Positions 4,300-28,800 of a stretch of DNA of 32,000 nucleotides are shown piece after piece. The DNA lies in contig NZ_LT671858.1 of the NCBI RefSeq assembly GCF_900083515.1, forward strand, positions 60,001-92,000. The letters run 5' to 3'. The stretch is from Cuniculiplasma divulgatum (GTDB lineage Archaea; Thermoplasmatota; Thermoplasmata; Thermoplasmatales; Thermoplasmataceae). Numbering within the stretch: the first letter of the stretch is position 1; each line of letters opens with the position of its first letter. Below the pieces are notes generated by a model. The model saw only the letters and a list, made by a program, of their open reading frames with translations, was not told the origin of the DNA and did not search any database. The translations under genes were made by a program, and so were the position numbers.

Positions 4300-4905
4300 A
4301 TGGCACTCGCTTTCGCTTATGTTCGTGCCAGCACCCAGGAAGAGGTCAGGCAGGGCTCAAACGAGAGGCAGAAGGCCATAATCAGAGAGTACGCGAAGTC
4401 CAGGGGCTATGAACTTGAATTCTTCGAAGACAGGGCGAAGTCCGGGAAGAACATCCAGAGGCCGGATTTTGAGAGGATGCTAAATTCTCTTGATGCCAAG
4501 CCGAAGCTTGTCATTGTCGCAAAGATCGATAGATTTGCCCGTTCCCTATCAGACCTGCTGAGAATGCTTGAATATCTGGACCAGAAGGGCATAGGATTCA
4601 TCAGCGTCAACGACCCAGGCATAGATACAACCACACCCAACGGAAGGCTCCTGCTGCAAATCCTGGGTGCTTTTGCGGAATTCGAGAGGAATATGATCAA
4701 TTCCAGAACAAAGGCAGGAAGGGAACAGGCCATGAGCAGGGGAGTCAAATTCGGGAGGCCTGCACTGAAAACGAGGAATGGAAGCTTCATAGACAGGAGG
4801 AAGGTCATTGAACTGAAAGAGAGAGGCCTTTCTGCAAGAGCCATAGCAAAGTCCATGGAATGCTCAATAACGCCAATACTGAAAATCCTGAAAGAAAGCC
4901 ACTGA
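4300..4905 (+). CDS. small serine recombinase (resolvase/invertase family)
   Basis: The N-terminal catalytic domain carries AYVRASTQEE (Ser nucleophile context), IDRFARS, GAFAEFERNMINSRTKAG and FGRP. A C-terminal HTH is present (LSARAIAKSMECS). At 201 aa, the length is typical. Confidence 0.9.
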   Translation: MALAFAYVRASTQEEVRQGSNERQKAIIREYAKSRGYELEFFEDRAKSGKNIQRPDFERMLNSLDAKPKLVIVAKIDRFARSLSDLLRMLEYLDQKGIGFISVNDPGIDTTTPNGRLLLQILGAFAEFERNMINSRTKAGREQAMSRGVKFGRPALKTRNGSFIDRRKVIELKERGLSARAIAKSMECSITPILKILKESH

Positions 4906-5165: not shown

Positions 5166-6251
5166 ATGGCTCTGAAAGATCCATATGCGTTCTTTGACAG
5201 CAAGGTCAAGCAGAGGGCAAAGGAAACCAGCAACATAAAGAATGCACAGCTATTCGACATGGATTTCAAGCCAAATCGCATCCTCATAAGAAAGGAACTT
5301 GACAAGGTTACCAATGACCTTGCAGACTACGTGAACCTAAACCTTCCCAGGCACATAATCATCTATGGTTCAAAGGGTTCCGGCAAGACGCTTAGTGCTT
5401 TGATCATGGCAAAGGCCCTGAAAGAGAGCAAATCTGTGCCATATTACTACATAAACGTAAGAGAGAACCCAACCTCCATAAAGATATACAGGTATCTGAC
5501 AAGGATATCCAGCAGAGGCCATGACATTGATGAAGTAAAGAACAAATTTGACTCGTTGCTGTCTGGAAAGTCAATTGTTATACTGGACGAAGTTGATTTT
5601 CTCCAGGACTATGATGTCCTATACCACATAACGAGACATACAAAAGCTAACCTTATCCTGCTGACCCAGAAAGTCTACTGGTACAAGGACATGAACGACG
5701 AGAGCGTGAAGAGTTCCCTGCAGCCTGACCACATAGTGTTCCATGAATACAACGCAGATGAGATTCGCGAGATACTGAAAATGAGGGCAGAAGAAGGTCT
5801 TAACAAATTCGACAAGGTTGCTTTAGGCCTCTTATCCGCCATGCTTGTCAGGGAGTACAGGAGCGATGCGAGGATCGGCCTCAAGGCACTGGAGATACTT
5901 GGAAGAGTTAACAAATGGACTGATGAGGCAGTCATATCAGCATTGAGGCAGGCTTATGTGGAGGTGGAGGGAGAAACTCTAAGGAATCTTGGAGACAGGG
6001 ACTTATTGATTCTGGCGTCATTGATCAAGAACCAGGACACGAATAAAGCCTATGCTGAAGTGACGAATATCAACAGCTTCCTGGTTAAGGGAATGAGCAA
6101 GTCAACATTCTTCCAGAGCGTCAACTACCTGCAGAACCTAGGTCTGGTCACGCTGATTAAGAAAAAGATTGGCCGGTACTACACAATGGAATCGCAAATT
6201 TTATTATCTGATGCGTCGATTGTATCTGTCGAATTAAGAAAAAGGCTTTGA
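5166..6251 (+). CDS. cdc6: Orc1/Cdc6-family replication initiator
   Basis: AAA+ Walker A (IIIYGSKGSGKTLSA) and Walker B (IVILDEVDFL), with a C-terminal winged-helix-like region (STFFQSVNYLQNLGLVTLIKKK). At 361 aa, the size is as expected for archaeal Orc1/Cdc6. Confidence 0.8.
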   Translation: MALKDPYAFFDSKVKQRAKETSNIKNAQLFDMDFKPNRILIRKELDKVTNDLADYVNLNLPRHIIIYGSKGSGKTLSALIMAKALKESKSVPYYYINVRENPTSIKIYRYLTRISSRGHDIDEVKNKFDSLLSGKSIVILDEVDFLQDYDVLYHITRHTKANLILLTQKVYWYKDMNDESVKSSLQPDHIVFHEYNADEIREILKMRAEEGLNKFDKVALGLLSAMLVREYRSDARIGLKALEILGRVNKWTDEAVISALRQAYVEVEGETLRNLGDRDLLILASLIKNQDTNKAYAEVTNINSFLVKGMSKSTFFQSVNYLQNLGLVTLIKKKIGRYYTMESQILLSDASIVSVELRKRL

Positions 6252-6290: not shown

Positions 6291-6720
6291 TTTGGTATCT
6301 ATCGGTAAGACTTCGGCTCAAATTCACCCCTAGCCCCTCGTTGAGCCTTCGTCAATTGCTATGTGCCCTTCGCTCGCCTGCACGCCGAGCACAGGACCCC
6401 ATGCTTCGCCTACAATCAAAATTCACCCCTAACCCCTCTTTTGATTTCCATCTCGCACTCTTCTGCGAAGAGCCCCTCATTCGCCTTGCTCATTCAGGGT
6501 GGTGTCCTGTGCTCGCCGCTCGTGGTGTATGTGTGGTGTTACACACCTTCGCTTCGCTTGGTGTTCCACACCACCCACCGCTAACGCTTACACCACTCGG
6601 TCTTGCTACGCAAGACTTCCGGCTCGCTTCGGGCACATTACTCTCTCCTGCGGAGGTCAATTTGAGGGGAACAGGGTAGGGGAATTTTTGACCGCACCAT
6701 CTCGTTGCACTCGGTGCGGG
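6291..6720 (+). ncRNA. GC-rich hairpin-dense element, copy A (candidate structured RNA; family unknown)
   Basis: GC is visibly above that of the flanks, and ORFs are open in many frames on both strands. Six perfect hairpins are present (coordinates in findings). It is homologous end-to-end to 27784-28166. The strand is inferred from one G-U pair and from TATA-like and T-run context, so it is tentative. Confidence 0.5.
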
Positions 6721-12729: not shown

Positions 12730-12733
12730 TTCT

Positions 12734-14174: not shown

Positions 14175-14315
14175 ATGGCAACAGATGTAATATGCGGAAT
14201 GAAAGTGAAGGAGAGCACTGACCTGAAGAGTGAGTTCCAGGGAAAAACATTCTACTTCTGCAGCAGCCACTGCAAGTCAGAATTTGACAAGAACCCCCTG
14301 AAATACAGCAGGTAA
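14175..14315 (+). CDS. TRASH/YHS-domain small metallochaperone (CopM-like)
   Basis: MATDVICGMKVKESTDLKSEFQGKTFYFCSSHCKSEF is a YHS/TRASH motif. The ATG at 14175 is chosen because the 14106 start would leave only 6 nt for the divergent promoters. Confidence 0.65.
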   Translation: MATDVICGMKVKESTDLKSEFQGKTFYFCSSHCKSEFDKNPLKYSR

Positions 14316-14326
14316 GGAGAATATAA

Positions 14327-16435: not shown

Positions 16436-16488
16436 AAAATGGGTTAAATAAACAAACATTATACCTTCTATTTTACTGGAACACACAT

Positions 16489-17307
16489 TTACAGGCCACC
16501 AAAAAACCATGCAATTATTATTCCTGCGGCTAGCGCTAAAATTGATATAGATGCCATTATCGATATGATCCCTCTGCTGGGATATACTTCTTTCATGTGG
16601 TGCATATCTGTATGTTTGTTTATCATACTTTCTGAATCGTGTGTTTTAGGTCTGACAGTCATCATGCCGTGCTTAAGGTGATTTGATACCAGCCACCAGT
16701 TCATTGGGTAAGCCATCCCTAAGCCTCCCAAGAGAGCCATGGAGAATATAAACCAGAACACCACTCCTAACGGGTTATGACCTCCAGGAATGTTTGCCAG
16801 GGAAATGGTTGAAATGGGAATCATTGCAGTCATCAGAAGATTCATGGAGAGCAGTTCTGGTATAAAAGTCGAAGCTAAGGAACGCTTGTAAGAACCACCT
16901 GCCATGTCACGCATGAACAATGACTGGAATATCGCCCATCCAAAAAGGAAACCCATGGAATATTCAATAGCCACGTCGACAAATGGAGAAAAGTGTATTA
17001 CAGAACCAATTACCGCGCCCACTAATATTCCTATGCCGTCTCCCGCAACGCAATGTATAGTAGACCCAAGTACCTGTCTCCACCTTGCAGAAACGTAGCG
17101 TTCATGTAGACCAGGTAGAGGCTCTCTGCAACCTACCACATACAGGAAGGCACCTATGACTCCAGCATACGCTGTCACCAAGACAAATCCCAGTTTAAGG
17201 ATTGGATTCTCTGGAGTGGAACGTATATCCAAGATTACGAAAATCAGGAAAGGGATTGTAAGCGCAAACCAAAGCAACATCACTCCTTCAAGAATTGAGG
17301 TGTACAT
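16489..17307 (-). CDS. polytopic membrane protein, DUF4396-like
   Basis: Multiple hydrophobic helices. STIHCVAGDGIGILVG resembles the conserved HC..G motif of DUF4396 proteins (from memory). The ATG at 17307 is preferred over the TTG at 17316. Convergent with copA. Confidence 0.5.
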   Translation of the reverse strand: MYTSILEGVMLLWFALTIPFLIFVILDIRSTPENPILKLGFVLVTAYAGVIGAFLYVVGCREPLPGLHERYVSARWRQVLGSTIHCVAGDGIGILVGAVIGSVIHFSPFVDVAIEYSMGFLFGWAIFQSLFMRDMAGGSYKRSLASTFIPELLSMNLLMTAMIPISTISLANIPGGHNPLGVVFWFIFSMALLGGLGMAYPMNWWLVSNHLKHGMMTVRPKTHDSESMINKHTDMHHMKEVYPSRGIISIMASISILALAAGIIIAWFFGGL

Positions 17308-18287
17308 TTCACACAACTTCTTCTAAGTCTTGTGATATTATGTTAGACTATGTAGTTCTTATCTCTTTTCTGAGACAGTGGTTGAGACGTACCTCATTTC
17401 TTTTATCACCAGCCAAAGAACCCAATATGTTGAGGTCTCAGAAGTTGTAGGACGCCGTAAGCTACCATACAGAAGGTAACAAATGCTTTGTTTTCACCAC
17501 AAAATGAATTTACATTGGTTTTATGAGAATTCATAGTATTCGCTTAAAACATTAAGCGAATCCCGACCGGTCCATTCTGAATTTTTCAGTTAAATGAGAA
17601 AATCTCAAAATCATTCCTAAGTTTATTGTCCTTTGCTTATTCAAGAAATTTAGAGATTTTAACTCTGCATCTTTGTGCCTCCTCCAACAATTCTTCATGG
17701 ACATTAAAGTTTAGTTTCCCTTGAATGTGCATGCATACGTTCAAAAAAGAATTAAATGATACAATGTTGAACAGAGACTTGTACCATTTCTTTGTTGGCA
17801 TATTTCCAATGGCTGTAAATCATACTTTCTTTGTCCCACTCTTTCCGTACAAACAAATTTATAATTATTCTTAATATCTCAATTTCTAATCCTGATATTG
17901 CTGGCCAAACTGCTAAACTCAATACCACACAATAAAAATATCTGTATGTCTAAGAACGTGTATACTTCTCTGACAATGGAATAGGAATTATGAGGTTTCA
18001 GTATTTTGAATATGGAATATAGATACTCAAATCACCAAATTGTTAATTGGAAATAACCTCTGCAATGTATTTCCTCGTACACCAAATTTCCTACTATAGT
18101 GAATTTAAAGTTGTTTAACAAACTAGACGAATCTAAATGTATCAGGTCTACATTGTCCGATCTATTGATAAATGAAAGAGAGAGGTTAGGAAGACAGAAT
18201 TAAGATCGCATTCTCCTAGTTAAAACATCCAATACAAATTAACTTTTCTTTTTAATGAAACATTTCTTAGAGCAAGTCACATCTATT

Positions 18288-19538
18288 TCACGGAAAAACG
18301 TATTGGTCAATTCTATTAATATCATTGCAAAGTGAGACTGAATTACCACTAGTAACAATATCTGATATTACATCAGCGTTTGGATGATGATGATTATTGC
18401 CCAATCCAAATGATACAAACCAATGACCAGGGCTCACAACGTGTTTCATTATATCTAGATTCCAATTTCCTTTTGATCCGTGATGAGGAATAAGCAAATT
18501 GTTCATTTGATCAAGACAATCACTAAAATGTTTAAGAAATGCACTCGATACCTTTTTGAAGTTTACATCTCCGGTTAATACCCATCCAAATTTAACATTG
18601 GATTCCAATTCTGTTTTGCAATGGTAAAAATAATAATTTGATGGCATATTTCTTGTGGAATCTGCAGGGCATAAGAGTGAATGAATTTGCTTTTTAGTTG
18701 GTCCATGGAAAACTATTAAGGAAGTATCGTTTAGCTCTTTAAAAGTATTTTTATAGCATTTTTCGAGTTTATCTAAATGGCCTTTATTTAAAAGTATTTT
18801 TTTTAGCATTACATTATTTATATTTCCTGTGTTCGGTAATATTTGTTTAACACATTTTTCTAGTTGCGATAAGTTCTGTTTTGTTGGAGGGGAGAAAAAC
18901 CTGAAAACCCATTTCTTTCTTAAAGTAACCAATCCAGTATGGTTTTTTAATAAAATTTTTCCCTCAAAATTCTCTTCAAACAATTGATTATCATAATCTC
19001 TAATCATCTTTCTAAGATCTTCATTATCAGAAAGCTTAATTGCTTCATCATTTAAATCTTCGGAACTCAGATCAAACTCACCACCTGGAAATTCATCATT
19101 ATTTCTTTCATACCTTTCGTCATTTTTACTATTATTACCACTGATTAAAACAACTTTATCAGCCCCTAGTTCCAAAAAGTAACTTACCGGATCGATAAGT
19201 AAATTTAAGTATGATTCAGTTAAATGTGCATGCCCACCTAAAGCCAAAAGAAGTCTTTGAATTGGAAGCAGGTAAGGTAAGAACACATATCTGACTTTAG
19301 TATTTTTCATTAATTCTTCGATCCCACTAACATGATCCAGGTGCAGGTGAGATATAATTAACATGTCAATTTTAGAATTCCCCAATCTGCTTTTGTAATC
19401 TCCTATAATACTGGATATCTTATTTAGAGCTTTCATTGAACCACAATCATAGACCATATTAAAGCTACCAATTTTTCCAGTGTAGAAAAGCCCCTGCCCA
19501 ACGGGCTCTAAAGAGAATCTGGCACAATATTTAATCAT
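18288..19538 (-). CDS. metallo-beta-lactamase-fold hydrolase (ComEC/Rec2-like branch, probable nuclease)
   Basis: EPVGQGLFYTG...MVYDCGS followed by MLIISHLHLDHVSGI (HxHxDH), with later His/Asp motifs (VLTGDV, LIPHHGSKGN, NHHHPN). 416 aa. The nuclease role is an inference from the family. Confidence 0.7.
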   Translation of the reverse strand: MIKYCARFSLEPVGQGLFYTGKIGSFNMVYDCGSMKALNKISSIIGDYKSRLGNSKIDMLIISHLHLDHVSGIEELMKNTKVRYVFLPYLLPIQRLLLALGGHAHLTESYLNLLIDPVSYFLELGADKVVLISGNNSKNDERYERNNDEFPGGEFDLSSEDLNDEAIKLSDNEDLRKMIRDYDNQLFEENFEGKILLKNHTGLVTLRKKWVFRFFSPPTKQNLSQLEKCVKQILPNTGNINNVMLKKILLNKGHLDKLEKCYKNTFKELNDTSLIVFHGPTKKQIHSLLCPADSTRNMPSNYYFYHCKTELESNVKFGWVLTGDVNFKKVSSAFLKHFSDCLDQMNNLLIPHHGSKGNWNLDIMKHVVSPGHWFVSFGLGNNHHHPNADVISDIVTSGNSVSLCNDINRIDQYVFP

Positions 19539-19783
19539 ATATATTATAAGTGCTGACTGTATAAAATTGTTTCTGTAATAAATTGTGCAAACTTTGTTAA
19601 TTTATTATTCAAAAGGAAGATTTAAAAAAAATGTTGAATATTTTTATAATAACATCTTTGTTTTTTTCCAGCCCTGAAGATAAATTTTTTAAACAGTCAA
19701 TCTAACATTTTCCTTCATCTATAAAGATAGGAAAAAATTATATGGACTAGACGGTTATTAATTTCAATTATTAAGGGAGTTTA

Positions 19784-22153
19784 ATGGCTAGAAAAAGTGA
19801 GAAAAAAGAAAATAGAGATGAACTGACACAATACACATTTGAAGGAGAAAAGAGACTCAATATCCCACAAACAGGACTGGTTTCAGCGGGAACTGATCCA
19901 ATTAACGGGAAGAAGACGTATATGTTTGATCCACACTTGGATCCCGAGTTGCAATGGGCTGGAAAAACTGAAGGAACAAGCTTTGAAGTGGACACAGTAT
20001 CTTTACACGTTCATGAAAGAATCGATCCTCTAACAATAATTGAAGCAGTCAGAAATAAGGAGCCAGATACCCAAAGAAACTTGTTCTACTATTTTGAGGA
20101 GCCAGAAAACAATCTTCCTATTAGGGAAGCAATAGAATTCTACAAACACTCTGAAGGCTGGTCGAATAGATTGATTGCAGGAGACTCTTTAATTGTTATG
20201 AATTCTCTCCTTGAGAAAGAAGGTATGGCTAGAAAGGTTCAGATGATTTACATAGATCCACCTTATGGGATAAAGTATGGTTCTAATTTTCAGCCGTTTG
20301 TAAATAAGCGAGATGTTAGGGACGGAAAAGCTGAAGATCTGACACAGGAACCAGAGACCGTAAAAGCGTTTAGAGACACTTGGGAACTTGGAATACACTC
20401 TTATTTGACCTATTTAAGAGACAGATTGCTTCTAGCAAAGGATCTGCTATCTGAAACTGGCAGTATATTTGTCCAAATGAATGATGAGAATTTGCATCAT
20501 GTTAGAGAAATAATGGATGAGGTATTCGGAAATCAGAACTTCGTCGCGATCATTACGTATCAAACAGCTACAAATCAGAATACTAAGACCATCCAAAGAT
20601 TGCATGATTACTTGATCTGGTATTCAAAAACTGATAACCCAAAGGTAAGACACCTGTTTAGAAAATATACACAGGAAGAGCGGGCCAACATTTTTAATAA
20701 TATTGACAGTAAAAATAGGAGATTCAAGGCAGCTCAGTTTAGAGATAATTGGACAAAAAGTCAAATAGAAAATCTAAGAAAATCAGATAGAATATATGGT
20801 AAATATGTTAAACGGTTTGAAACAGATTTTGAGTATACTGAATATGACACTGTTTGGAATGGGACCGTAATTTCAACGTTCTCTAAGGAGAAAGTTTACG
20901 CTGTCCAAACTAGCACAGTTCCTATTAAGCGTTGCATTCTGATGACAACTGATCCAGGGGATCTTGTTCTGGATATAACTTGCGGTAGTGGCACAACGGC
21001 ATACGTGGCAGAGCAGTACGGTCGAAGATGGATTACATGCGACACCTCTCGCGTTTCAATAACTTTATCAAAGCAAAGATTGATGACATCCATATTTGAT
21101 TTTTACGAGTTAGCACATAAGGATGAAGGTGTTTCGAGCGGTTTTAATTATGAAAAAGTACCACACATCACACTTAGTTCTATCGCGAATGAAGAGCCTC
21201 ATATAGAGGAAATTTTGTATGACAAACCTATTATCGACCGCACAAAGAAAAGAGTGACTGGTCCTTTTACCGTTGAAGCAGTGCCGTCACAGCGTGTAGT
21301 AAATCTGGAAGAAGTTGAAGAAAATTCTAGTGCCCAAGACCCAGATAACACAATTCCCAGAACTGGAGAAACTATAAGACAGAGTGATTGGATTGATGAA
21401 TTGAGCAGAACTGGAATAAGGAGTGTCAAGGGAAAAGAAAACATCAAATTCGTAAGAATTGGAATATTACAGGGGACGAAGTGGTTACAAGCTGAAGGGG
21501 AGACAGAAGACGGGCAGAGAGCAGTAATTTCTTTTGGGCCCACTTATGCTCCATTAGAACAAAGACAGGTTGAATTGGCTATCGAAGAAGCACAGCAATT
21601 AGTTCCCAAGCCCAAGCTCGTTATATTTGCTTCATTCCAGTTTGATCCTGAGGCGGCAAAGGATATTGATGAACTAAAATGGCCTGAAGTTTCCGTTATA
21701 AAATGCCAGATGAATACAGATCTCTTGACAGAAGATCTTAAGCAAAAGAAGGCGAATGAGGAATCGTCTTTCTGGCTCATTGGACAGCCGGATATCGAAT
21801 TGACAAGAAAAGAAGAAAAATACATTGTAACAGTGAATGGCTTTGATTACTACGATACTCGGACTGGCGAAATAAAGTCTGGAAATCCATCAAATATTGC
21901 TATGTGGGAATTGGATACTGACTATAACGGCAGGAGTCTTTATCCCAGACAGGTATTCTTCCCTCTTGAGGGCGAGAACGGTGGTTGGAGTAAGCTCACT
22001 AAAGCACTTCGGGCATATGTTGATGAAGATCTAATTTCTAGCTATTCTGGCAACCAGTCTTTACCATTCAAAGCCGGCAGAAACAAGCAAATTGCGATAA
22101 AGATCATTGATGATCGTGGCATTGAATCTTTGAGAGTTTTAAAGGTGGATTAA
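19784..22153 (+). CDS. mod: type III restriction-modification DNA methyltransferase (Mod, beta-class N6/N4)
   Basis: Motif IV IYIDPPYG precedes motif I LDITCGSGTTAYVAEQYGRRWITCD, the beta-class order typical of Mod. GGGAG lies upstream of the ATG. The stop overlaps the res start (TAATG). Confidence 0.85.
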   Translation: MARKSEKKENRDELTQYTFEGEKRLNIPQTGLVSAGTDPINGKKTYMFDPHLDPELQWAGKTEGTSFEVDTVSLHVHERIDPLTIIEAVRNKEPDTQRNLFYYFEEPENNLPIREAIEFYKHSEGWSNRLIAGDSLIVMNSLLEKEGMARKVQMIYIDPPYGIKYGSNFQPFVNKRDVRDGKAEDLTQEPETVKAFRDTWELGIHSYLTYLRDRLLLAKDLLSETGSIFVQMNDENLHHVREIMDEVFGNQNFVAIITYQTATNQNTKTIQRLHDYLIWYSKTDNPKVRHLFRKYTQEERANIFNNIDSKNRRFKAAQFRDNWTKSQIENLRKSDRIYGKYVKRFETDFEYTEYDTVWNGTVISTFSKEKVYAVQTSTVPIKRCILMTTDPGDLVLDITCGSGTTAYVAEQYGRRWITCDTSRVSITLSKQRLMTSIFDFYELAHKDEGVSSGFNYEKVPHITLSSIANEEPHIEEILYDKPIIDRTKKRVTGPFTVEAVPSQRVVNLEEVEENSSAQDPDNTIPRTGETIRQSDWIDELSRTGIRSVKGKENIKFVRIGILQGTKWLQAEGETEDGQRAVISFGPTYAPLEQRQVELAIEEAQQLVPKPKLVIFASFQFDPEAAKDIDELKWPEVSVIKCQMNTDLLTEDLKQKKANEESSFWLIGQPDIELTRKEEKYIVTVNGFDYYDTRTGEIKSGNPSNIAMWELDTDYNGRSLYPRQVFFPLEGENGGWSKLTKALRAYVDEDLISSYSGNQSLPFKAGRNKQIAIKIIDDRGIESLRVLKVD

Positions 22154-24942
22154 TGACTTACGATAAGGTACAGCACCTAATAATTAACAGCCCTTATGAG
22201 AAGCCAGACAAGCACCTCAAATATGATCGCAATGAGCGAAAATTTGAGCTGGTTGAAGGAAGACGTCCTGCAGGATATACAAAAGCTTCAGAACAATCAG
22301 AAAAGTTTGATGATCCCGGATTCTTTGTAGAGCTGCCTGAAGTTAACAAAATCAGGGAACGAGTCGATAAGTGGAGAGATTCAGGATATCAAGGTATTAC
22401 AAAGGTAACAAAGGAGTTGCTGGACTATTGGAAGAAACCGGACAGAGACAGAAAACTCTTCTTCTGCCAACTTGAAGCAATTGAAACACTTATATGGTTC
22501 ATAGAGGCTCCGCCCACGGAGAAACAAGGAATAAAGTTAGAGGGTGATGGTGGTAACATAGAGCGGTTATGTTCTAAAATGGCCACAGGGACAGGGAAAA
22601 CAGTTGTCATGGCAATGCTCATAGCTTGGCAGATCATCAATAAGATGACTTACAGACAAGACACACGATTCTCCAAGGATATCCTTGTTGTGTCGCCTGG
22701 GCTTACGGTAAGAAATAGACTCCAAGTCCTCAGTCCAACGGCCTCAGAGGGAAGCAACTACTACATAGAATTTGATCTGATTCCTTCTGGAATGTATGAC
22801 AAGCTCCGCGGTGGACATGTCAAAATTATCAACTGGCACCTTCTCGAATGGGAAACGGAAGACCAGGTTAAGAGGAAAAAAAGTGTCGACAAGCGTGGTG
22901 TGAAAAGTGATGAATCTTATGCAAGAGAAGTGCTTGGCGAACTGAAAGATGCAAAAAATATTATTGTGATAAATGACGAGGCGCATCACGCCTGGAGATT
23001 TAATCCAGAAGCTCTTGGAAAATACGTAAGGCAGAGAGACATGAAGGACAGTGCCAATGAGAGCACTGTATGGATAGGTGGCCTTGACAAAATCAATAAT
23101 GTTAGAAATATCATGCGATGCTTTGATTTCACAGCTACTCCCTTCCTCCCTTCTGGAAAGACAGCAGACGAAGACTCACTATTTGGGTGGATTGTAAGCG
23201 ATTTTGGTCTAAACGAGGCAATAGAATCCGGCCTTGTAAAGACCCCTAGGGTTGTTGTCAGAGATGATGGAACACCAAACGCCAAGACAATGAAATCAAA
23301 ATTCTACCATATATATGTTGATCCGAAAGTGAAGTCAAATTTAAATCAAGCAGAAGGGAAAGAAGTTCCTTTACCAGACCTCGTAACAAAAGCATACTAC
23401 TTCTTGGGCCTTGACTGGCTTGAGACGCTTAAACTGTGGGAGAATAGTGCTGAAACTCCTCCTGTGATGATATCAGTATGTAACAGGACCGAAACTGCTG
23501 CCAGAGTCAAGTTTTCACTAGATAAAGGAAAGATCATGATCAAGGAACTGCAAAATCCCGATGCTACTCTTCAAATAGATACAAAAGTGCTTAACGAGGC
23601 TGAATCTGGGCTTAATGTCAAGGGTGGTGCTTCGAAGAAAACAATGGCGGAAGAACTGCGTGAAAAAGTAGACACGGTAGGGCAAAAAGGGCATCCAGGA
23701 GAAAAAATTCAACATGTTATCTCAGTCGGAATGCTTTCAGAAGGCTGGGATGCAAAGACTGTAACACACATCATGGGACTGAGGGCCTTCACAAGTCAGC
23801 TACTTTGTGAACAGGTAGTGGGAAGAGGCTTGAGACGAACATCCTATGATGTGAATAAAGAGACTGGTCTTTTCGAGCCAGAATACGTTAATGTGTTTGG
23901 TGTGCCGTTCACATTCCTCCCACACGAAGGAGAGGGTGTTGGTCCGGAGGGTGGTATCCCTCCGCCCCCTCCTACACCTAAGACAAGAGTCCATGTTGAC
24001 GATGATAAGAAGAAATTTGAACTGACCTGGCCAAACGTCCTGAGAATCAATCACACATACACTCCAAGGTTAAAGATCGATCTTGATAAAGTTCAAGAAC
24101 TACAGCTCAACCCTGAAGACACACCACTGAAAGCCGAATTGGCGCAGATAATCGAGGGTAAACCTGATGTTACAAAGGAACTGAAAGTAATCGACCTGTC
24201 AAACAATCAGGTTGAAAAATTGATCACGAGTTTGAGAAAGCAGAGATTGATATTTGAGGCCGCAAGAGATGTTTTTGATCAGATGCAACCATCGTGGCCA
24301 GGTAGCAAGGAATATTTAATAGCACAGTTGATAAGAATAGTCGAGGCATTTTTGGATTCAGATAAGCTTGTTATTCAGAGTGAATCATACAGGGAGAATC
24401 TAAAAAAGAGGCTTCTAATCCTATTAAACATGAACAAGATAGTTCAGCATCTCTTCAGCGCAATACGTGCAGAAAATACCGAGAAACTGGTACCTATTTT
24501 TGACAAGGAAATGCCCATAAAGTCCACTGGAAAAATGATCACCTGGTACACAAGCAAGCCGTGTGAGCTGACTAATAAGTCCCACATCAGCCATGTTGTT
24601 TACGACAGCGCATGGGAAGCATCAGAGTCGTATGAGTTGGAAAATAATGGCGCAATTTTGAGTTGGGTCAAGAATGATCACTTGGGGTTTGTCATAAGTT
24701 ACCTTTACAAAGGGGTGGTTCACAGTTATTATCCAGACTTCCTTATTAAGTTAAGCAACGGGAAGATGTTGGTGCTAGAAGTAAAAGGGATAGACGATGA
24801 AAAGAACAGAACAAAAAGAACAGCTCTAAAGGAGTGGATCGATGCAGTCAACTCTGACGGACGATTTGGACCATGGGAATCTGATGTATCGTTCAGACCC
24901 TCTGATATTAAGGACATAATAAGGCGGCATATGGTGGGATAA
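22153..24942 (+). CDS. res: type III restriction enzyme Res subunit (SF2 helicase plus C-terminal PD-(D/E)xK nuclease)
   Basis: Motif I MATGTGKT, motif II VINDEAHHAW, SVGMLSEGWDAKTV, motif VI QVVGRGLRR, and C-terminal YYPDFLIK...MLVLEVKG (D...ExK). Confidence 0.85.
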   Translation: MTYDKVQHLIINSPYEKPDKHLKYDRNERKFELVEGRRPAGYTKASEQSEKFDDPGFFVELPEVNKIRERVDKWRDSGYQGITKVTKELLDYWKKPDRDRKLFFCQLEAIETLIWFIEAPPTEKQGIKLEGDGGNIERLCSKMATGTGKTVVMAMLIAWQIINKMTYRQDTRFSKDILVVSPGLTVRNRLQVLSPTASEGSNYYIEFDLIPSGMYDKLRGGHVKIINWHLLEWETEDQVKRKKSVDKRGVKSDESYAREVLGELKDAKNIIVINDEAHHAWRFNPEALGKYVRQRDMKDSANESTVWIGGLDKINNVRNIMRCFDFTATPFLPSGKTADEDSLFGWIVSDFGLNEAIESGLVKTPRVVVRDDGTPNAKTMKSKFYHIYVDPKVKSNLNQAEGKEVPLPDLVTKAYYFLGLDWLETLKLWENSAETPPVMISVCNRTETAARVKFSLDKGKIMIKELQNPDATLQIDTKVLNEAESGLNVKGGASKKTMAEELREKVDTVGQKGHPGEKIQHVISVGMLSEGWDAKTVTHIMGLRAFTSQLLCEQVVGRGLRRTSYDVNKETGLFEPEYVNVFGVPFTFLPHEGEGVGPEGGIPPPPPTPKTRVHVDDDKKKFELTWPNVLRINHTYTPRLKIDLDKVQELQLNPEDTPLKAELAQIIEGKPDVTKELKVIDLSNNQVEKLITSLRKQRLIFEAARDVFDQMQPSWPGSKEYLIAQLIRIVEAFLDSDKLVIQSESYRENLKKRLLILLNMNKIVQHLFSAIRAENTEKLVPIFDKEMPIKSTGKMITWYTSKPCELTNKSHISHVVYDSAWEASESYELENNGAILSWVKNDHLGFVISYLYKGVVHSYYPDFLIKLSNGKMLVLEVKGIDDEKNRTKRTALKEWIDAVNSDGRFGPWESDVSFRPSDIKDIIRRHMVG

Positions 24943-25159
24943 ATGAACTAAAAAGTGGAACTTGCCTAATCTTTTGCAAAGGAACTCTCCAGAAGGAATA
25001 TTGTTAAAAAGGACCGGCTTGAGCACATTAGTGAGAGAATAGAACAAGAGTGTCAATTCTTCAAGCCCCATAAGAGGCAACTTGCATGGATTGTGATAAC
25101 TGAGAATAGGTCATTTTAGAGAATAGGGTAACGCAGGAGCTATTGCACACAAAAATGGT

Positions 25160-25300
25160 GCTATAAAGTATTATAGAGTTCCTTCAAGAACTTGCTCGCA
25201 TCCCTAACTCAGTCATTCTTTTGTTCTCCTTCGAAATGACTTCATTCGCTCTATTCATTCCTGGATTGATAGGTAAAAATTTATTATTATATATAAGTTA
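25160..25300 (-). pseudogene. decayed paralog of the small antitoxin-like gene at 27573..27749
   Basis: Hand alignment of the minus strand gives INPGMNRANEVISKEN vs IEALENEYVMDQLERSE, then after a frameshift and stop VRDASKFLKEL vs VRNVREFMKEL. The N-terminal ~25 codons are missing. Flanking non-coding sequence is also similar. Confidence 0.4.
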
Positions 25301-25579
25301 ATATAATAGAGTTTTTCACCATTCAGATTGGAGGTAGGCTTTGTTTTTGATCATGAAATAATCGCATACCAGAGTTCACGTCTCAAATCTATGTTCAGTA
25401 TTTCTGATCTGATCGTAAACGTAAATGTCATGTAAAAATTTTGTATTCCTTATTACCTGAAAAGAGCGTTCATAATTTGTTTTGTTACAATTAGATTAAG
25501 ATTAAAAACTGGAACGTGGTAATCTATTTATGGCATAAAATTATAAATGATATTATATTATATATTTAGGCATCAGATT

Positions 25580-27415
25580 ATGAAATTTGTACGCTTTAAT
25601 TTTGAAAACTTTAAAGGCATAAGGAAATTGACTTTTGAACTGAACCAATCCCCCTCTTCAAATGTATATACATTAGTTGGTTTAAACGAAAGTGGTAAGA
25701 CTACTATTTTGGAGGCGATAAGTAACTTTGACCCAAATCTAGAACGAGGACCAATTGAAAAACCTGAAAAAACTATAGATAATGACCCTAATGCTTTTTT
25801 ACCATTAAGTGAAAGAGCTAACTTTGGAAAAGCAATAACAATCGGTGCAGAGTTAGAATTTGAATCGGAAGACATTGAAGAGCTAAACAAATACTTGAAT
25901 ATAAACAAAAAATATTCCGAAATAAAGGACGTTACCAACACTATTTACAGAAGGTTTTATAACTTTGAGAATTCAAAGTTCAAGGACATAAATAGAACTT
26001 GGAGCCCTGGATTCAAGGTCAGTGAGAGAAATGACCCTAAAGGTACTGGAGTCAATCTCTATGAAAAGGACAAAAAAACATGGATAGAATTGGATAAGAT
26101 CTGTAACAAACGTATACCTGACATTGTATACTTCCCTAATTTCCTTTTTGACTTTCCTTCAAGAATATATCTTTCTATTGATATTTTATCAACTGATGAA
26201 AAAGAGGAGTTTTATAAGAAGCTTATTCAGGACATCTTGTATTCTTTAGATATTAACGTTACAATAGAAGAACATCTTATTAACAGAATAAAGAGTGACA
26301 ACGAAAACGACAAGAGCAACCTAAGAAGAATAATTCAGTTAATGGAAGATAAGGTCACTAACGTAATATTTGAATCATGGTATAAAATGTTTAAAAAGGA
26401 AGTCAAAGCATCTAGAATCAAGATCGAAAGTGGAGAGGACAGCATAAAGGGGGCATATCTTGAATTCTATATCGAATCTTCAGACGGAGTATACAATGTA
26501 AAGGACCGGTCTCTTGGATTCAGATGGTTTTTTACCTTCCTACTTTTTACGCAGTTTCGACCTTATAGGCCAGATTCAAAAAAAGGTTTGATTTTCCTAT
26601 TTGATGAACCAGCTTCTAATCTGCATTCTTCAGCACAAAATCAACTACTAAAACATTTTGAAAATTTTGGAAATAAAGTTACCATAATTTACACTACCCA
26701 CAGCCATTATATGATAAACCCAAACTGGCTCGAAAGTACTTATGTTGTCAAAAACGGAGGATTTAATGTAGAATCATCAGAAGATGATGTCCCAAATAGT
26801 ACTAACGTTACCGTTGAGCATTATAGAACATTTGTTTCTAAAAACCCTAAAGAAACTTCATATTTCCAGCCAGTCCTAGATATATTAGAATACGTTCCAA
26901 GCGAATTAGAAAAGATCCCAAGCTGCGTGTTTCTAGAGGGAAAGAATGATTTCTATACGCTAAAATATTTTAACGAGGTAATTCTTAATAACGAGGTAAA
27001 AATCAACCTTATGCCCGCTTTTGGCGCATCCACTATGGATGCTCTGATTAGTATGTATATGGGTTGGGGGAAGAAGTTTATTATACTACTTGATGGAGAC
27101 AAAGAAGGGAATGAACAAAAGCATAGGTATTTAAAAAAGTTTGGAAAGTTCGTATCATCTGTAATTTTTACTTTAAAAGATATCGATCAAAAATGGGAGA
27201 ACAAGTCTTTAGAAGACTTATTTCAATCTTCTGAAGCTCTTTCTTTTCAACAGATTGCAGCTTCCGATTCTATAGAATTTAAAAAGTCTCAGTTCAACTT
27301 GGCTATTCAAGAGTGTCTAATATTGAAAAGAAGATTTAATTGGCAACCAGAAACAGTTAGTAGAATAGAAAAAATTCTCAATTTCTTACACACTAAAATT
27401 CAAAATAATCCATAA
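25580..27415 (+). CDS. OLD-family / PARIS-like ABC-type ATPase fused to a C-terminal Toprim (DUF4435-like) domain
   Basis: N-terminal MKFVRFNFENFKGIRKLTFEL, Walker A GLNESGKTT, Walker B LIFLFDEPASNLH, and TTHSHY. The C-terminal part has CVFLEGKNDFY ... IILLDGDKEG (Toprim E and DxD). The ATG at 25580 is preferred over 25547. Confidence 0.75.
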   Translation: MKFVRFNFENFKGIRKLTFELNQSPSSNVYTLVGLNESGKTTILEAISNFDPNLERGPIEKPEKTIDNDPNAFLPLSERANFGKAITIGAELEFESEDIEELNKYLNINKKYSEIKDVTNTIYRRFYNFENSKFKDINRTWSPGFKVSERNDPKGTGVNLYEKDKKTWIELDKICNKRIPDIVYFPNFLFDFPSRIYLSIDILSTDEKEEFYKKLIQDILYSLDINVTIEEHLINRIKSDNENDKSNLRRIIQLMEDKVTNVIFESWYKMFKKEVKASRIKIESGEDSIKGAYLEFYIESSDGVYNVKDRSLGFRWFFTFLLFTQFRPYRPDSKKGLIFLFDEPASNLHSSAQNQLLKHFENFGNKVTIIYTTHSHYMINPNWLESTYVVKNGGFNVESSEDDVPNSTNVTVEHYRTFVSKNPKETSYFQPVLDILEYVPSELEKIPSCVFLEGKNDFYTLKYFNEVILNNEVKINLMPAFGASTMDALISMYMGWGKKFIILLDGDKEGNEQKHRYLKKFGKFVSSVIFTLKDIDQKWENKSLEDLFQSSEALSFQQIAASDSIEFKKSQFNLAIQECLILKRRFNWQPETVSRIEKILNFLHTKIQNNP

Positions 27416-27572: not shown

Positions 27573-27749
27573 CTAGAGTTCTTTCATAAACTCTCTAACG
27601 TTCCTTACTTTCCCATTTTGTATATCTTTCTCGCTCCTTTCAAGCTGATCCATTACATACTCATTTTCAAGAGCCTCGATGGTGGCATAAAGACTATCCA
27701 AATCTGACTTCGGTATGCTTACAAGCCTTGACTGTTTTGCTGTGGTCAT
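27573..27749 (-). CDS. small Phd/YefM-RelB-like antitoxin-type protein (58 aa), not in the ORF track (below its length cutoff)
   Basis: Hand translation of the minus strand gives MTTAKQSRLVSIPKSDLDSLYATIEALENEYVMDQLERSEKDIQNGKVRNVREFMKEL. The pattern (L..l..tlE.leD.e.m..l..s..di..G) resembles type II antitoxins. No intact toxin ORF follows. Confidence 0.45.
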   Translation of the reverse strand: MTTAKQSRLVSIPKSDLDSLYATIEALENEYVMDQLERSEKDIQNGKVRNVREFMKEL

Positions 27750-27783
27750 AATATAACTCTATATTCTTTCAGATTTTAATATC

Positions 27784-28166
27784 TTTTAGTATGATTTGGC
27801 TCAAATTCTCCATCCGACTTTTAGCAATCCTCTCTTTGAGCCTTCGCCAATTACCATTTGCATTTAGCTCGCCTGCAAGTCGAACATAATACTCCATGCT
27901 TAGTTCCCAATCAAAATTCATCCCTAACCCTCTCTCGATTTATGCCTCGCACTCATCTTGGAAAAGCTTTCATTCGCTATGTTCACTCAAGTTGAGGTCC
28001 TGTGCTGGCCATTTATGGTTTATGTGTGGTGTTCCGCACCACCCACCGCTAACGCTTACACCACTCGGTCTTGCTTCGCAAGACTTCCGGTTCGCTTCGG
28101 GCACATTATTCTCTCCTGCGGAGTGCAATTTAGGGGTGGGTATTAATGGGACTCTCGACCGCACGA
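27784..28166 (+). ncRNA. GC-rich hairpin-dense element, copy B (same family as 6291-6720)
   Basis: Collinear with copy A in the same orientation. The 90-nt core 28034-28123 differs from 6566-6655 at 4 positions. The stems ggctcaa/ttgagcc (27799-27805 / 27836-27842) and gtcttgc/gcaagac (28069-28075 / 28079-28085) are retained. A T6 run lies at 28187-28192. Confidence 0.5.
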
Positions 28167-28266
28167 TAAGGATCCAATCCACTATATTTTTTGGTTAATC
28201 CAAACTAAGAACTGTTAAGTATTATTTTAATACTACTCTCATATACTTATTTTATGAGATGAAATT

Positions 28267-28800
28267 ATGCGAAATAACAACCTAAGATATTATTCAATCA
28301 CCTACCTATTTCACCTAAACGGAGGCATTAGGGGTATTTTTTTCTCTAGAGGATCTTTGGATTTTTACATCTCACTCTTAATAGTTTCGATATTAACTTT
28401 GTTCCATAAACTTCATCCAATGAGCACAACAGAAGTAATATTCGTAATTGGCTTGGATGTTGCACTTCTGGGCCTAATTTTAGCAACATATGCAATAATT
28501 TACTCAATCCAAGACGAAAATTATCTATCTGCCTTAATAGCTTCTAGAAACTATCAATATCTATTATTTCAAACCTCCTGGTCCTCGTATTGGATCTTCC
28601 TATCTATCCCATTATTTGGTTTTATAGAGATGGTATATTATAATGTTACAATTCAAGCGTTAGCATTATTTGCAATAATATATGGGTTTCTTGGTACTTT
28701 CGTCCTTATAACTAAAGCTTTAAGAAAAATAGCAATAACTGCTGCCAGAAAAAGTGAGAAACTAATGAAGAGTTGGGAAGAAGCAGAGAAAAATAATTAA
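28267..28800 (+). CDS. hypothetical polytopic membrane protein
   Basis: About 4-5 hydrophobic helices and a charged C-terminal tail (KSEKLMKSWEEAEKNN). No family is recognised. The start is uncertain, with an internal ATG near 28417. Confidence 0.45.
   Translation: MRNNNLRYYSITYLFHLNGGIRGIFFSRGSLDFYISLLIVSILTLFHKLHPMSTTEVIFVIGLDVALLGLILATYAIIYSIQDENYLSALIASRNYQYLLFQTSWSSYWIFLSIPLFGFIEMVYYNVTIQALALFAIIYGFLGTFVLITKALRKIAITAARKSEKLMKSWEEAEKNN

What the first reader, a model, noticed from the sequence alone, without database searches (positions are those of the whole stretch)
27784..28166. Second, diverged copy of the element (copy B): the conservation pattern looks like selection on structure rather than on a protein
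Hand alignment shows the following:
- Copy B is collinear with copy A in the same orientation.
- A 90-nt core (28034-28123 vs 6566-6655) differs at only 4 positions, while the 5' ~250 nt are far more diverged, with many substitutions and small indels.
- Two of the four core substitutions fall in the loops of the two core hairpins: tac vs ttc, and the first loop nt of the ccgg/tcgg hairpin. None disrupts a listed stem.
- The 5' stem ggctcaa/ttgagcc is intact in both copies, although the enclosed loop differs in sequence and length (19 vs 30 nt).
- Copy A carries a 25-nt insertion (6541-6565, itself a small acacc/ggtgt hairpin) relative to copy B. The length is not a multiple of 3, so no reading frame is conserved across the element.
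- A TATA-like A/T box (about 27774-27785) precedes copy B, and a T6 run (28187-28192) follows it.
Basis: seen in the sequence. Interest (0 to 1): 0.75.

Follow-up and report, generated by a model that had tools for sequence, protein, structure and literature searches.

The report
Conserved structured element in archaeal islands
Copy B is a partly decayed copy of a strongly conserved, hairpin-rich, 420-540-nt non-coding element that sits at the end of the cargo slot of plasmid-like and defence islands in acid-loving Thermoplasmata archaea; the element matches no known RNA family and its function, most likely as a structured RNA, is still open.

Summary
Copies A (about 6311-6719) and B (about 27794-28166) are collinear. 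The 90-nt core differs at 4 positions and the flanks are 60-77% identical.

They belong to a family of at least 46 near-full copies in acidophilic Thermoplasmata (Cuniculiplasma, E-plasma, I-plasma, Thermogymnomonas). Genomes that carry more than one have two or three. No match was found in Rfam, plasmid, phage or IMG/VR collections.

The element is non-coding. It diverges 5-10 times less than the third codon positions of the adjacent small gene. Its variation avoids predicted stems.

It recurs in the order resolvase, Orc1/Cdc6-like gene, variable cargo (mostly restriction-modification), sometimes a divergent small-ORF operon, then the element.

Copy A lies inside a ~21-kb element integrated at tRNA-Ala. 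Copy B closes an older resident defence island.

Mosaic copies at the B site show homologous crossovers inside the core.

Copy B has lost the global fold (z about 0, against -6 for copy A) and drifts from GC to AT outside the core. "Selection on structure" therefore fits the family, not copy B.

Best reading: a functional backbone module, probably a + strand structured RNA. A cis-acting DNA site is not excluded.

The parts
27794..28166 (+). Element copy B (the finding): 3'-truncated, partly decayed member of the family
   Evidence: nhmmer hit 27745-28180, E 7.8e-120. Alignments A1, A3 and A4. It forms 69 of 87 consensus pairs. Fold z is -0.14 and -1.16.
27798..27843 (+). B hairpin/unit 1: GGCTCAAA ... 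TTTGAGCC with a diverged 30-nt loop
   Evidence: Sequence; A3 columns 8-64.
27909..27940 (+). B unit 2: AATCAAAA-TTCATCCCTAACCCTC-TCTCGATT, the second direct copy of the TCAAA(A)TTCACCCC..CCCCTC motif. Two arm positions changed from T to C.
   Evidence: helix 8 mismatches are listed.
28034..28123 (+). Conserved core. It contains the palindromes/hairpins GGTGT-TCC-GCACC (28028-28040), GTCTTGC-TTC-GCAAGAC (28068-28084) and CTCC-TGC-GGAG (28113-28123).
   Evidence: 4 differences from copy A. Family pairwise divergence in the core is 0.05. Crossover breakpoints map here.
28130..28164 (+). G-tract region (the inverted, degenerate third copy of the unit motif) followed by GACCGCAC. The family's 3' hairpin partner GTGCGG is missing in B.
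   Evidence: A3 columns 405-470. This part is identical in three Cuniculiplasma genomes at this site.
28167..28266 (.). Junction with the conserved chromosomal flank (includes T6 at 28187-28192), ahead of the 177-aa gene at 28267-28800
   Evidence: Identical in winB, L081 and L083. The same right flank is present in 8 assemblies.
27573..27749 (-). ORF1: 58-aa protein resembling the C-terminal half of Phd/YefM, divergent from the element. Present next to 22 of 46 copies.
   Evidence: 288 homologues; some sources name them RelB or PHD/YefM antitoxin.
27750..27793 (.). Conserved spacer with the TATA-like box (27774-27785) and an A-rich BRE-like stretch on the ORF1 side. Fits a leaderless ORF1 promoter; may be bidirectional.
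   Evidence: Upstream alignment of the ORF1-linked copies.
6311..6719 (+). Element copy A: well-preserved member, starting 60 nt after the orc1/cdc6-like stop codon. There is weak similarity to the long-form 3' module up to about 6745.
   Evidence: nhmmer hit 6273-6738, E 4e-145. It forms 87 of 87 pairs. Fold z is -6.3 and -5.4.
6541..6565 (+). 25-nt tandem duplication (hairpin GGTGT-NNN-ACACC plus a TTCGCTTCGCTT spacer)
5166..6251 (+). Orc1/Cdc6-like initiator of the plasmid-like unit. A co-oriented homologue lies upstream of the element in 17 loci.
   Evidence: TIGR02928 E 2.8e-30, below the curated cutoff; gene maps.
4300..4905 (+). Serine resolvase of the same unit
   Evidence: Pfam Resolvase E 1.6e-44; recurs in 6 loci.
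17559..17576 (+). attR: exact 18-nt copy of the 3' end of tRNA-Ala(CGC). It places copy A inside a ~21-kb integrated element and copy B outside it.
   Evidence: L078 equals window 1-6394 at 99.9%.

Best explanation
**Shown**

Copy B and copy A belong to a previously undescribed family of 420-540-nt non-coding elements (called ELEM here) in acidophilic Thermoplasmata.

ELEM is a conserved backbone module of plasmid-like integrative elements and of the defence islands they leave behind. The recurrent, co-oriented order is:

1. (ParA) and a serine resolvase
2. an Orc1/Cdc6-like gene
3. a variable cargo slot: type III or other restriction-modification systems, helicase-nucleases, or nothing
4. an optional divergent small-ORF operon (ORF1/ORF2)
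5. ELEM

In three contexts the whole unit hangs on tRNA-Ala(CGC).

ELEM evolves far more slowly than neighbouring third codon positions. Because it is conserved, it is also the place where homologous crossovers join incoming elements to resident islands, which produces mosaic copies.

In this window, copy A is the intact ELEM of a ~21-kb element integrated at tRNA-Ala. Copy B is the ELEM of an older resident island (MBL, MTase, Res, OLD, ORF1). B has lost its 3' hairpin and its global fold and is drifting towards AT, except in the core.

**Inferred**

The constrained form is a folded single strand. Most likely this is a + strand RNA of about 400-450 nt. It would be transcribed either from the compact promoter region shared with ORF1 or by read-through from the co-oriented upstream operon. 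It would act for the mobile element, for example as the RNA part of a maintenance or regulatory RNP. Its invariant 150-nt core would be a binding surface, and its peripheral hairpin loops would be free to vary.
For: - **Family and hosts.** 22 metagenome loci and 31 archaeal genome loci; 46 near-full copies.
- **Non-coding.**
- **Constraint.** Mean pairwise divergence is 0.05 in the core and 0.10 in the 5' part. ORF1 shows 0.51 at third codon positions and 0.15 at first and second positions in the same loci. Copies within one genome are only 93-95% identical, so homogenisation alone does not explain the low divergence.
- **Structure.** z is -6.3 for copy A and -2.5 to -6.7 across the family, and is more negative on the + strand in 8 of 10 copies. 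Variation is 2.8-fold lower in the stems of copy A's own MFE fold (0 of 133 circular shifts). Consensus fold cells are 97.8% paired, with compensatory changes in helix 14 and in the 3' hairpin. Indels fall in hairpin loops and the 25-nt insertion duplicates a hairpin. The element is about 55% G+C where the window's 1-kb bins run 0.30-0.47.
- **Orientation.** Every abutting upstream gene, from 5 unrelated families, is co-oriented.
- **Architecture.** Gene maps; strain variants with the same backbone and different cargo.
- **Integration.** tRNA-Ala attL and an 18-nt attR at 17559-17576.
- **Crossovers inside ELEM.** winB, L081 and L083 share an identical 3' part and flank but have different 5' parts, with different breakpoints.
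- **Decay of copy B.**
Against: - No transcript data are available.
- There is no conserved terminator. A T5 run follows the G-tracts only in one sequence type.
- The conserved TATA/BRE fits the ORF1 promoter on the opposite strand.
- Covariation is minimal. G.U-compatible and A.C-type changes are balanced (15 against 14), and 17 changes are outright disruptive.
- The + strand is C-rich (33% C, 22% G), which is unusual for a structured RNA.
- The recurrent perfect palindromes with 3-nt centres would suit dimeric DNA-binding proteins or ssDNA hairpins equally well.
- Single-unit deletion variants lack the long-range helices (L017, L024, L083).
- Low divergence could partly reflect recombination among copies.
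Confidence: 0.45

Rival explanations
1. ELEM is a cis-acting DNA site of the mobile element, working as double-stranded or transiently single-stranded DNA. Examples would be a transfer locus (oriT-like or clt-like) served by the element's 580-aa ATPase, or a dense array of binding sites for element-encoded proteins. It would not be an RNA.
For: - Primary sequence is conserved in paired and unpaired positions alike.
- No G.U strand asymmetry.
- Four or five perfect palindromes with 3-nt variable centres, plus a 22-nt motif present twice direct and once inverted.
- Fixed orientation within a backbone that carries ParA, resolvase, Orc1/Cdc6 and an AAA_10/AAA_22-like ATPase.
Against: - G+C is well above the surroundings, and the fold z-scores are strong.
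- Constraint is continuous over more than 400 nt rather than confined to short sites with free spacers.
- The palindrome CTCC/GGAG changes to CCCT/AGGG on both arms. That fits a hairpin better than a protein operator.
- The element persists in islands that have lost the backbone genes (L071, L072, L013).
Confidence: 0.28
2. ELEM has no function of its own. It is a shared homology block (an anchor) kept similar by frequent recombination, and its effect is cassette exchange between islands.
For: - Mosaic copies with breakpoints inside ELEM.
- Left and right neighbours are shuffled across loci.
- ELEM-cargo-ELEM arrays occur in the window, L014 and L068.
- Assemblies break in it.
- Copies within one genome are slightly more alike than average.
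Against: - Divergence is 5-10 times lower than at the third codon positions of a gene only 60 nt away. Recombination would have to stop sharply at the ORF1 promoter.
- Variation avoids stems.
- Copy B shows what relaxed evolution looks like (GC to AT drift, z about 0), and the other copies do not look like that.
Confidence: 0.1
3. ELEM is the replication origin served by the adjacent Orc1/Cdc6-like initiator, with the three repeated C/G-tract units acting as ORB-like boxes.
For: An Orc1/Cdc6-like gene lies upstream and co-oriented in 17 loci, and directly adjacent in the cargo-free versions (window copy A, L040, L059, L074). The unit motif occurs twice direct and once inverted.
Against: - ELEM is G+C-rich with no AT-rich unwinding stretch.
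- Cargo of up to 6 kb separates it from the initiator gene.
- A much better origin candidate lies directly upstream of the gene: an AT-rich 106 nt flanked by inverted repeats that covary between loci.
- ELEM is kept in islands that lack the initiator.
Confidence: 0.06
4. The active strand is the minus strand. ELEM would be a G-rich RNA or a long 5' leader of the ORF1-ORF2 operon.
For: The minus strand is purine-rich and folds to a lower energy, with more consensus pairs. ELEM lies upstream of ORF1 in 22 of 46 copies.
Against: - ORF1 has its own TATA/BRE at the right distance for a leaderless mRNA.
- No conserved promoter lies at the far end of ELEM.
- Half of the copies have no ORF1 and abut the 3' end of a convergent gene.
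- z-scores and the stem/loop contrast favour the + strand.
Confidence: 0.07
5. ELEM is a non-autonomous transposable element, of the MITE or IS200/IS605-derived PATE type.
For: The 5' boundary is sharp and constant (CTTCGGCTCAAATTC), and the long-form 3' boundary is constant (GGTAGGCGAAAA), across different contexts. There are subterminal hairpins, multiple copies and truncated copies.
Against: - Only 2-3 copies per genome.
- No terminal inverted repeats and no target-site duplications.
- No related transposase or TnpB next to any copy; the only transposase seen is an IS1634-like insertion into a copy.
- The position is always the same within one gene architecture.
Confidence: 0.04

Closest known systems
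Large orphan structured RNAs linked to mobile elements (GOLLD, ROOL, HEARO/omega-RNA class; named from my own knowledge of Rfam and the Breaker-lab literature)
   Same: Several hundred nucleotides long, with strongly negative fold z-scores, an invariant core with variable peripheral hairpins, and carriage on mobile DNA.
   Different: No match to any of 4227 Rfam models. The host is archaeal. No associated nuclease or transposase gene was seen. Covariation support is much weaker. Expression has not been shown.
Integron attC sites and other cassette-end recombination elements
   Same: It sits at the 3' end of co-oriented cargo genes, has a strand-specific orientation, is rich in hairpins, forms element-cargo-element arrays, and recombination joins cassettes at it.
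   Different: It is 4-8 times longer. It is conserved in sequence rather than only in structure. No integron integrase is present. Breakpoints vary in position, as expected of homologous rather than site-specific recombination.
tRNA-linked genomic islands / integrative plasmids of archaea
   Same: The unit is integrated at the 3' end of tRNA-Ala(CGC) with an 18-nt direct repeat. It carries plasmid-type maintenance genes (ParA, resolvase, Orc1/Cdc6-like), toxin-antitoxin genes, restriction-modification genes and metal-resistance cargo.
   Different: ELEM is not the att site and has no significant similarity to the tRNA (p=0.35). The candidate integrase (429 aa) has no Pfam match. A second, homology-based anchor at the far end of the cargo slot is not a described feature of such islands, as far as I could find.
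Plasmid replication-control or primer RNAs (ColE1 RNA II type; from my own knowledge)
   Same: An RNA-sized (about 500 nt), highly folded backbone region next to the replication gene, with G-tracts followed by a T-run near its 3' end.
   Different: The replicon is of the Orc1/Cdc6 type, with its own origin-like region upstream of the gene. Cargo can separate ELEM from the replication gene. There is no antisense partner and no evidence of priming.

Membership tests
Any Rfam 15 family | Score at or above the family's gathering threshold against a covariance model | tested here: not met
   0 hits in the window at gathering thresholds. Only chance-level hits (E 0.3-8) at E<=10 on copy A and on a long-form copy.
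   Stops in all six frames apart from one frame that the 25-nt indel breaks. Loop and compensatory changes would be non-synonymous. No BLAST match in the plasmid or phage collections.
MITE / non-autonomous DNA transposon | Terminal inverted repeats and target-site duplications | tested here: not met
   The ends CTTCGGCTCAAATTC and GGTAGGCGAAAA are not inverted repeats. The flanks of more than 25 copies show no duplication.
MITE / non-autonomous DNA transposon | Many dispersed copies in unrelated contexts | tested here: not met
   Two to three copies per genome, always at the same place in one gene architecture.
IS200/IS605-derived PATE / omega-RNA | Shares its ends with a TnpA/TnpB-bearing element; the RNA overlaps the 3' end of tnpB | tested here: inconclusive
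   No TnpB-like neighbour appears among the clustered flanking ORFs of 46 copies. Public collections were not searched for an autonomous partner.
Integron attC | 57-141 bp imperfect palindrome with R/L boxes, served by an IntI integrase | tested here: not met
   Length is 420-540 nt. No tyrosine recombinase was detected in the window or in the loci examined.
Archaeal replication origin | AT-rich unwinding element flanked by inverted initiator boxes next to orc1/cdc6 | tested here: not met
   ELEM is about 55% G+C with no AT-rich stretch. Such an architecture does exist, at 4916-5069 upstream of the gene.
tRNA-derived att site | Significant identity to the target tRNA's 3' part | tested here: not met
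   Best local alignment to tRNA-Ala scores 18 against a null of 17.0 +/- 2.2 (p=0.35). The real attR is at 17559-17576.
Structured non-coding RNA (generic) | Statistically supported covariation in helices | tested here: inconclusive
   5 of 87 pairs have changes on both sides (shuffles average 2.4; 1 of 500 reach 5), and they are confined to two small hairpins. The other helices are invariant or change on one side only.
Structured non-coding RNA (generic) | A discrete transcript of defined strand and ends | not testable with these tools
   No expression data could be accessed. No paper describing the element was found.

The most novel reading that the evidence does not exclude
ELEM is a new class of large (about 450 nt) structured RNA carried by archaeal integrative plasmids. 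Its near-invariant 150-nt core, with repeated CUNCG-type hairpin loops, assembles with element-encoded small proteins (for example the adjacent ORF1 and the zinc-ribbon ORF2). This RNP is required for maintenance of the element or for capture and exchange of defence cassettes at tRNA-Ala-linked islands.
Probability: 0.3. Interest if true: 0.75.

Novelty: new variant of a known kind. Interest (0 to 1): 0.6.

Why it matters
The element is one of the most conserved non-coding sequences in the variable genome of acid-mine Thermoplasmata. It is better conserved than the protein-coding positions next to it. It is absent from RNA-family libraries and from the island literature I could search.

It marks a precise, reusable slot where restriction-modification and other defence systems are swapped. 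It is also demonstrably the crossover point that fuses incoming plasmid-like elements with resident islands.

If it is an RNA, it would add an archaeal, plasmid-borne member to the short list of large orphan structured RNAs. If it is a DNA site, it would be a handle on transfer or recombination in archaeal mobile elements, about which little is known.

In practical terms:
- It breaks metagenome assemblies of these organisms.
- It is a good marker for finding their defence islands.
- The host (Cuniculiplasma divulgatum) is cultured, so the question can be tested directly.

Tried and rejected
- **Rfam.** Gathering thresholds on the window and permissive E-values on copy A and a long-form copy gave nothing.
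- **Sequence collections.** BLAST against the plasmid and phage collections gave no match. Four IMG/VR scans with different conserved 19-22-mers gave no match.
- **Coding hypothesis.** Rejected.
- **TnpB/omega-RNA or autonomous-partner idea.** The split copy in L018 holds an unrelated IS1634-like transposase, so it is an insertion, not a parent element.
- **tRNA-derived origin of the 5' unit and the core hairpin.** It looked suggestive by eye, but the alignment score is at chance (p=0.35).
- **Origin-of-replication idea.** Weakened by a much better origin-like region upstream of the initiator gene.
- **Strand assignment from G.U against A.C substitutions.** Balanced, so uninformative.
- **Long-range pairing between the C-rich hairpin loops and the 3' G-tracts.** Insert types at the two regions showed no correlated changes (by eye).
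- **Reaching more diverged homologues through ORF1.** The best 120 of 288 homologues are at least 81% identical. The T. acidophilum locus keeps only a ~50-nt remnant of the core.
- **Literature.** Searches on Thermoplasmatales and Cuniculiplasma non-coding RNAs and genomic islands found no description.
Full report
**1.

Copy B (about 27794-28166) and copy A (about 6311-6719) are collinear on the + strand.
- The 90-nt core, 6566-6655 against 28034-28123, differs at exactly four positions. One is the middle nucleotide of a hairpin loop. One converts a U-A pair into U.G.
- Outside the core, B is 72% (5' part) and 59% (3' part) identical to A.
- The 25-nt insertion in A (6541-6565) is a tandem duplication of the small hairpin GGTGT-NNN-ACACC plus a spacer. 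A metagenomic variant of copy A lacks it.

**2. It is a family, not a pair**

- Contigs that carry the gene upstream of copy A end inside the element in many assemblies. That is the signature of a repeat.
- One conserved 19-mer recovered 22 metagenome loci. An independent 20-mer recovered 31 archaeal genome loci plus 11 bacterial chance hits that hold no element.
- A profile HMM built from the first set finds 46 near-full copies (E 1e-91 to 1e-164) and several fragments.
- The hosts are acidophilic Thermoplasmata: E-plasma, I-plasma, Thermogymnomonas acidicola, many hot-spring and mine MAGs, and one Micrarchaeota MAG.
- The window itself is Cuniculiplasma divulgatum-type DNA, 98% identical to strain PM4 (LT719092) over 11 kb.
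- Genomes that carry more than one copy have two or three.
- Nothing similar turned up in Rfam, PLSDB, the phage collection or IMG/VR, or in the papers I could search.

**3. Anatomy** (alignment A3 of 29 full copies)

- The 5' boundary is sharp at CTTCGGCTCAAATTC.
- Two direct copies of a unit, TCAAA(A)TTCACCCC-[optional insert]-CCCCTC-TTT(T)GA, each close into a hairpin.
- A central region and a 150-nt core follow. They contain perfect palindromes with 3-nt centres: CTCTTC-TTC-GAAGAG, GGTGT-TNC-ACACC (once or twice), GTCTTGC-TNC-GCAAGAC and CTCC-TGC-GGAG.
- Next comes a variable G-tract region that is an inverted, degenerate third copy of the unit.
- A 3' hairpin, CCGCAC...GTGCGG, closes this part.
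- Most copies continue for about 110 nt more, to a second sharp boundary at GGTAGGCGAAAA. Both window copies lack this module.
- No frame is open or conserved.

**4. Evidence that the family is constrained**

- In the 12 loci that also carry the neighbouring small gene ORF1, mean pairwise divergence at ORF1 is 0.51 at third codon positions and 0.15 at first and second positions. In the element it is 0.10 (5' part), 0.05 (core) and 0.21-0.25 (3' part).
- Copies within one genome are 93-95% identical, against a mean of 89% over all pairs. Homogenisation contributes but cannot be the whole story.
- Fold energies are well below dinucleotide shuffles: copy A z -6.3 (+) and -5.4 (-), and the family -2.5 to -6.7 on the + strand. 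The + strand is the more negative in 8 of 10 copies.
- I took the MFE fold of copy A alone, so the structure owes nothing to the alignment. Columns paired in it are 2.8-fold less variable than unpaired ones on the + strand and 2.1-fold on the - strand. None of 133 circular shifts of the structure reaches that contrast.
- Length variation sits in hairpin loops.
- One 4-bp hairpin is doubly compensated in six sequences (CUCC/GGAG to CCCU/AGGG), and the 3' hairpin covaries.

**5. Limits of the structure argument**

- Covariation is otherwise absent because the helices hardly vary.
- In the pairs shared by the + and - strand consensus folds, variant types split into 15 G.U-compatible on the + strand, 14 on the - strand and 17 disruptive. 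Substitutions therefore do not reveal an RNA strand.
- Core positions are invariant whether paired or not.
- The palindromes with variable 3-nt centres would suit DNA-binding dimers or ssDNA hairpins as well as RNA.

**6. Copy B is a relic**

- It forms 69 of the 87 consensus pairs, against 81-87 in all 28 other copies. Its differences from the consensus fall on paired and unpaired columns alike (p=0.13).
- Its 5' half shows 33 GC-to-AT changes against 8 AT-to-GC changes.
- It lacks the 3' arm of the terminal hairpin.
- Its fold is no better than shuffles (z -0.14 and -1.16).
- Its 5' and 3' parts are 0.25 and 0.45 diverged from the other copies, about half to nearly all of the 0.51 seen at ORF1 third codon positions, while the core is at 0.09.
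It does not reflect stem-preserving evolution.

**7. Context: a recurrent architecture**

Gene maps of the loci show a co-oriented order:
- (ParA) and a serine resolvase;
- an Orc1/Cdc6-like protein (TIGR02928 E 2.8e-30);
- variable cargo;
- an optional divergent operon of ORF1 (57-58 aa, like the C-terminal half of Phd/YefM) and ORF2 (about 54 aa, zinc ribbon);
- the element.

The cargo is a type III methyltransferase with Res, a methyltransferase with a 991-aa helicase, a methyltransferase with a 316-aa protein, an 827-aa protein, a SNF2-PLD protein, or nothing.

The Orc1/Cdc6-like gene is present in 17 loci. Every gene that directly abuts the element's 5' end is co-oriented, and these genes come from five unrelated families. 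Right-hand neighbours vary in identity and orientation (pAgo, DndB-like, OLD-like, VapBC-like, copper proteins), and the same left module occurs with different right modules.

**8. The window in that frame**

- A contig identical to window 1-6394 extends it leftwards. tRNA-Ala(CGC) is followed by a 429-aa protein with no Pfam match, several small proteins, a 580-aa ATPase, ParA, the resolvase and the Orc1/Cdc6-like gene.
- An exact 18-nt copy of the tRNA's 3' end lies at window 17559-17576.
- A ~21-kb element is therefore integrated at tRNA-Ala. Copy A lies inside it, directly after the initiator gene, and is followed by metal-resistance cargo.
- Copy B lies outside it, at the end of the resident block of MBL, type III MTase, Res, an OLD-like ATPase and ORF1, just before a 177-aa gene.
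- In other genera the same bracket is seen with less between: tRNA-Ala, MTase, Res, element in T. acidicola; and tRNA-Ala, a two-gene ORF1 operon, element, only 630 nt apart, in another MAG.

**9. Recombination inside the element is directly visible**

At the chromosomal site of copy B, eight assemblies share the right flank while the left side varies. Alignment A4 shows the following:
- The PM4-type copy (equal to copy B), the copy in GCA_027367175 (L081) and the G-plasma copy (L083) are identical from the core to the 177-aa gene.
- Their 5' parts are unrelated variants.
- The switch lies between columns about 296-322 in L081 and about 386-419 in L083.
- L081 joins a complete backbone with cargo directly to the B-type 3' part. 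That is the expected product of a crossover between an incoming element's copy and the resident copy, deleting what lay between.

This explains the shuffled neighbours, the element-cargo-element arrays (window, L014, L068) and possibly the retention of B's core.

**10. What it most likely is**

- **Shown:** a conserved, constrained, non-coding backbone module that closes the cargo slot of these plasmid-like elements and islands, and that serves as their homologous crossover point.
- **Inferred:** the constrained form is a folded single strand, most likely a + strand RNA of 400-450 nt.
- **In favour:** G+C of about 55% where the window's 1-kb bins run 0.30-0.47; strong z-scores; variation that avoids stems, with the stronger contrast on the + strand; loop-located indels and hairpin duplications; strict co-orientation with upstream operons; a conserved promoter-like spacer at the right distance in the ORF1-linked copies.
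- **Against:** see section 5. In addition, the spacer's BRE/TATA fits the leaderless ORF1 promoter, there is no universal terminator, and the strand is C-rich.

I put the RNA reading at about 0.45 and a cis-acting DNA site at about 0.28. The remainder is spread over a pure homology anchor, a minus-strand RNA or leader, an origin and a MITE.

The origin reading is weakened by a classical origin-like region directly upstream of the initiator gene. This is an AT-rich 106 nt between inverted repeats that covary among loci.

**11. Novelty**

No family in Rfam, no similar record in the annotated collections and no description in the searched literature match this element. By kind it resembles large orphan structured RNAs of mobile elements, and by position it resembles cassette-end elements, but it fails the defining tests of each named family (see the membership table). 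The host is cultured, so the decisive experiments are feasible.

Noticed in passing
window 17559-17576 (and L078:4610-4681): An exact 18-nt copy (AATCCCGACCGGTCCATT) of the 3' end of a tRNA-Ala(CGC) gene that lies about 3.7 kb left of the window start. Together they are the attL/attR of a ~21-kb integrated plasmid-like element carrying ParA, resolvase, an Orc1/Cdc6-like gene, copy A and metal-resistance genes.
   Followed up: yes
window 4916-5069: An AT-rich stretch of about 106 nt flanked by 24-nt inverted repeats, directly upstream of the orc1/cdc6-like gene. The repeat arms covary between loci ((GA)n/(TC)n against (GT)n/(AC)n), and a GAC(T/G)CGTT motif recurs. This is a good candidate for the element's replication origin.
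   Followed up: partly
window 2600-2688 and 3339-3427: An 89-nt direct repeat (87% identical) at the 3' end of the 90-aa gene after parA and again 739 nt downstream. It is also present in the sister contig L078. It could be a partition site or a duplicated gene end.
   Followed up: no
window 18288-27415: A defence block: an MBL-fold protein (weak LmuA-like hit), a type III methyltransferase and a BPTD_3080-family restriction enzyme, and an OLD/AriA-like ATPase. In sister strains the cargo before ORF1 differs (other methyltransferase/Res alleles, ParE toxin).
   Followed up: partly
window 6882-17316: Metal-resistance cargo inside the integrated element: HxlR regulator, a MerA-like pyridine-nucleotide disulphide oxidoreductase, DUF302 proteins, a cupredoxin, a copper P-type ATPase and a DUF4396 protein.
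   Followed up: no
L020, L022, L033, L041, L054, L056, L070, L073 (next to ORF1); absent from the window: A second small gene (ORF2, 53-68 aa, CPxC...CSxC zinc ribbon) follows ORF1 in 10 loci. In other loci a ParE-family toxin gene converges on ORF1 with a 4-nt overlap.
   Followed up: partly
L018:7943-9487: An IS1634-like 514-aa transposase gene is inserted into a copy of the element, splitting it into a 5' piece (9573-9672) and the remainder (7595-7926).
   Followed up: yes
L087 (Thermoplasma acidophilum AL139299) about 5600-6000: ORF1 and a ParE toxin gene are present, but only a remnant of about 50 nt of the element's core remains, fused to the ORF1 promoter spacer. A fragment resembling a tRNA 3' end (AAATCCGATCGGGCCCA) lies about 250 nt further on. 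This looks like a degraded island.
   Followed up: partly
L014, L019, L021, L029, L030, L035, L039, L056, L068, L070, L072 (3' of the element): Most family members carry an extra 3' module of about 110 nt, with a long hairpin (GTGCCGTGC...GCACGGCAC) and ACCTTTTGGAAAAGGT, ending at GGTAGGCGAAAA. Both window copies lack it.
   Followed up: partly
L044 (Micrarchaeota MAG) and L071 (T. acidicola): Partial copies occur in a Micrarchaeota bin, which could be transfer from the Thermoplasmata host or mis-binning. The T. acidicola copy has runs of 7-8 C where the others have 4, possibly homopolymer sequencing errors.
   Followed up: no
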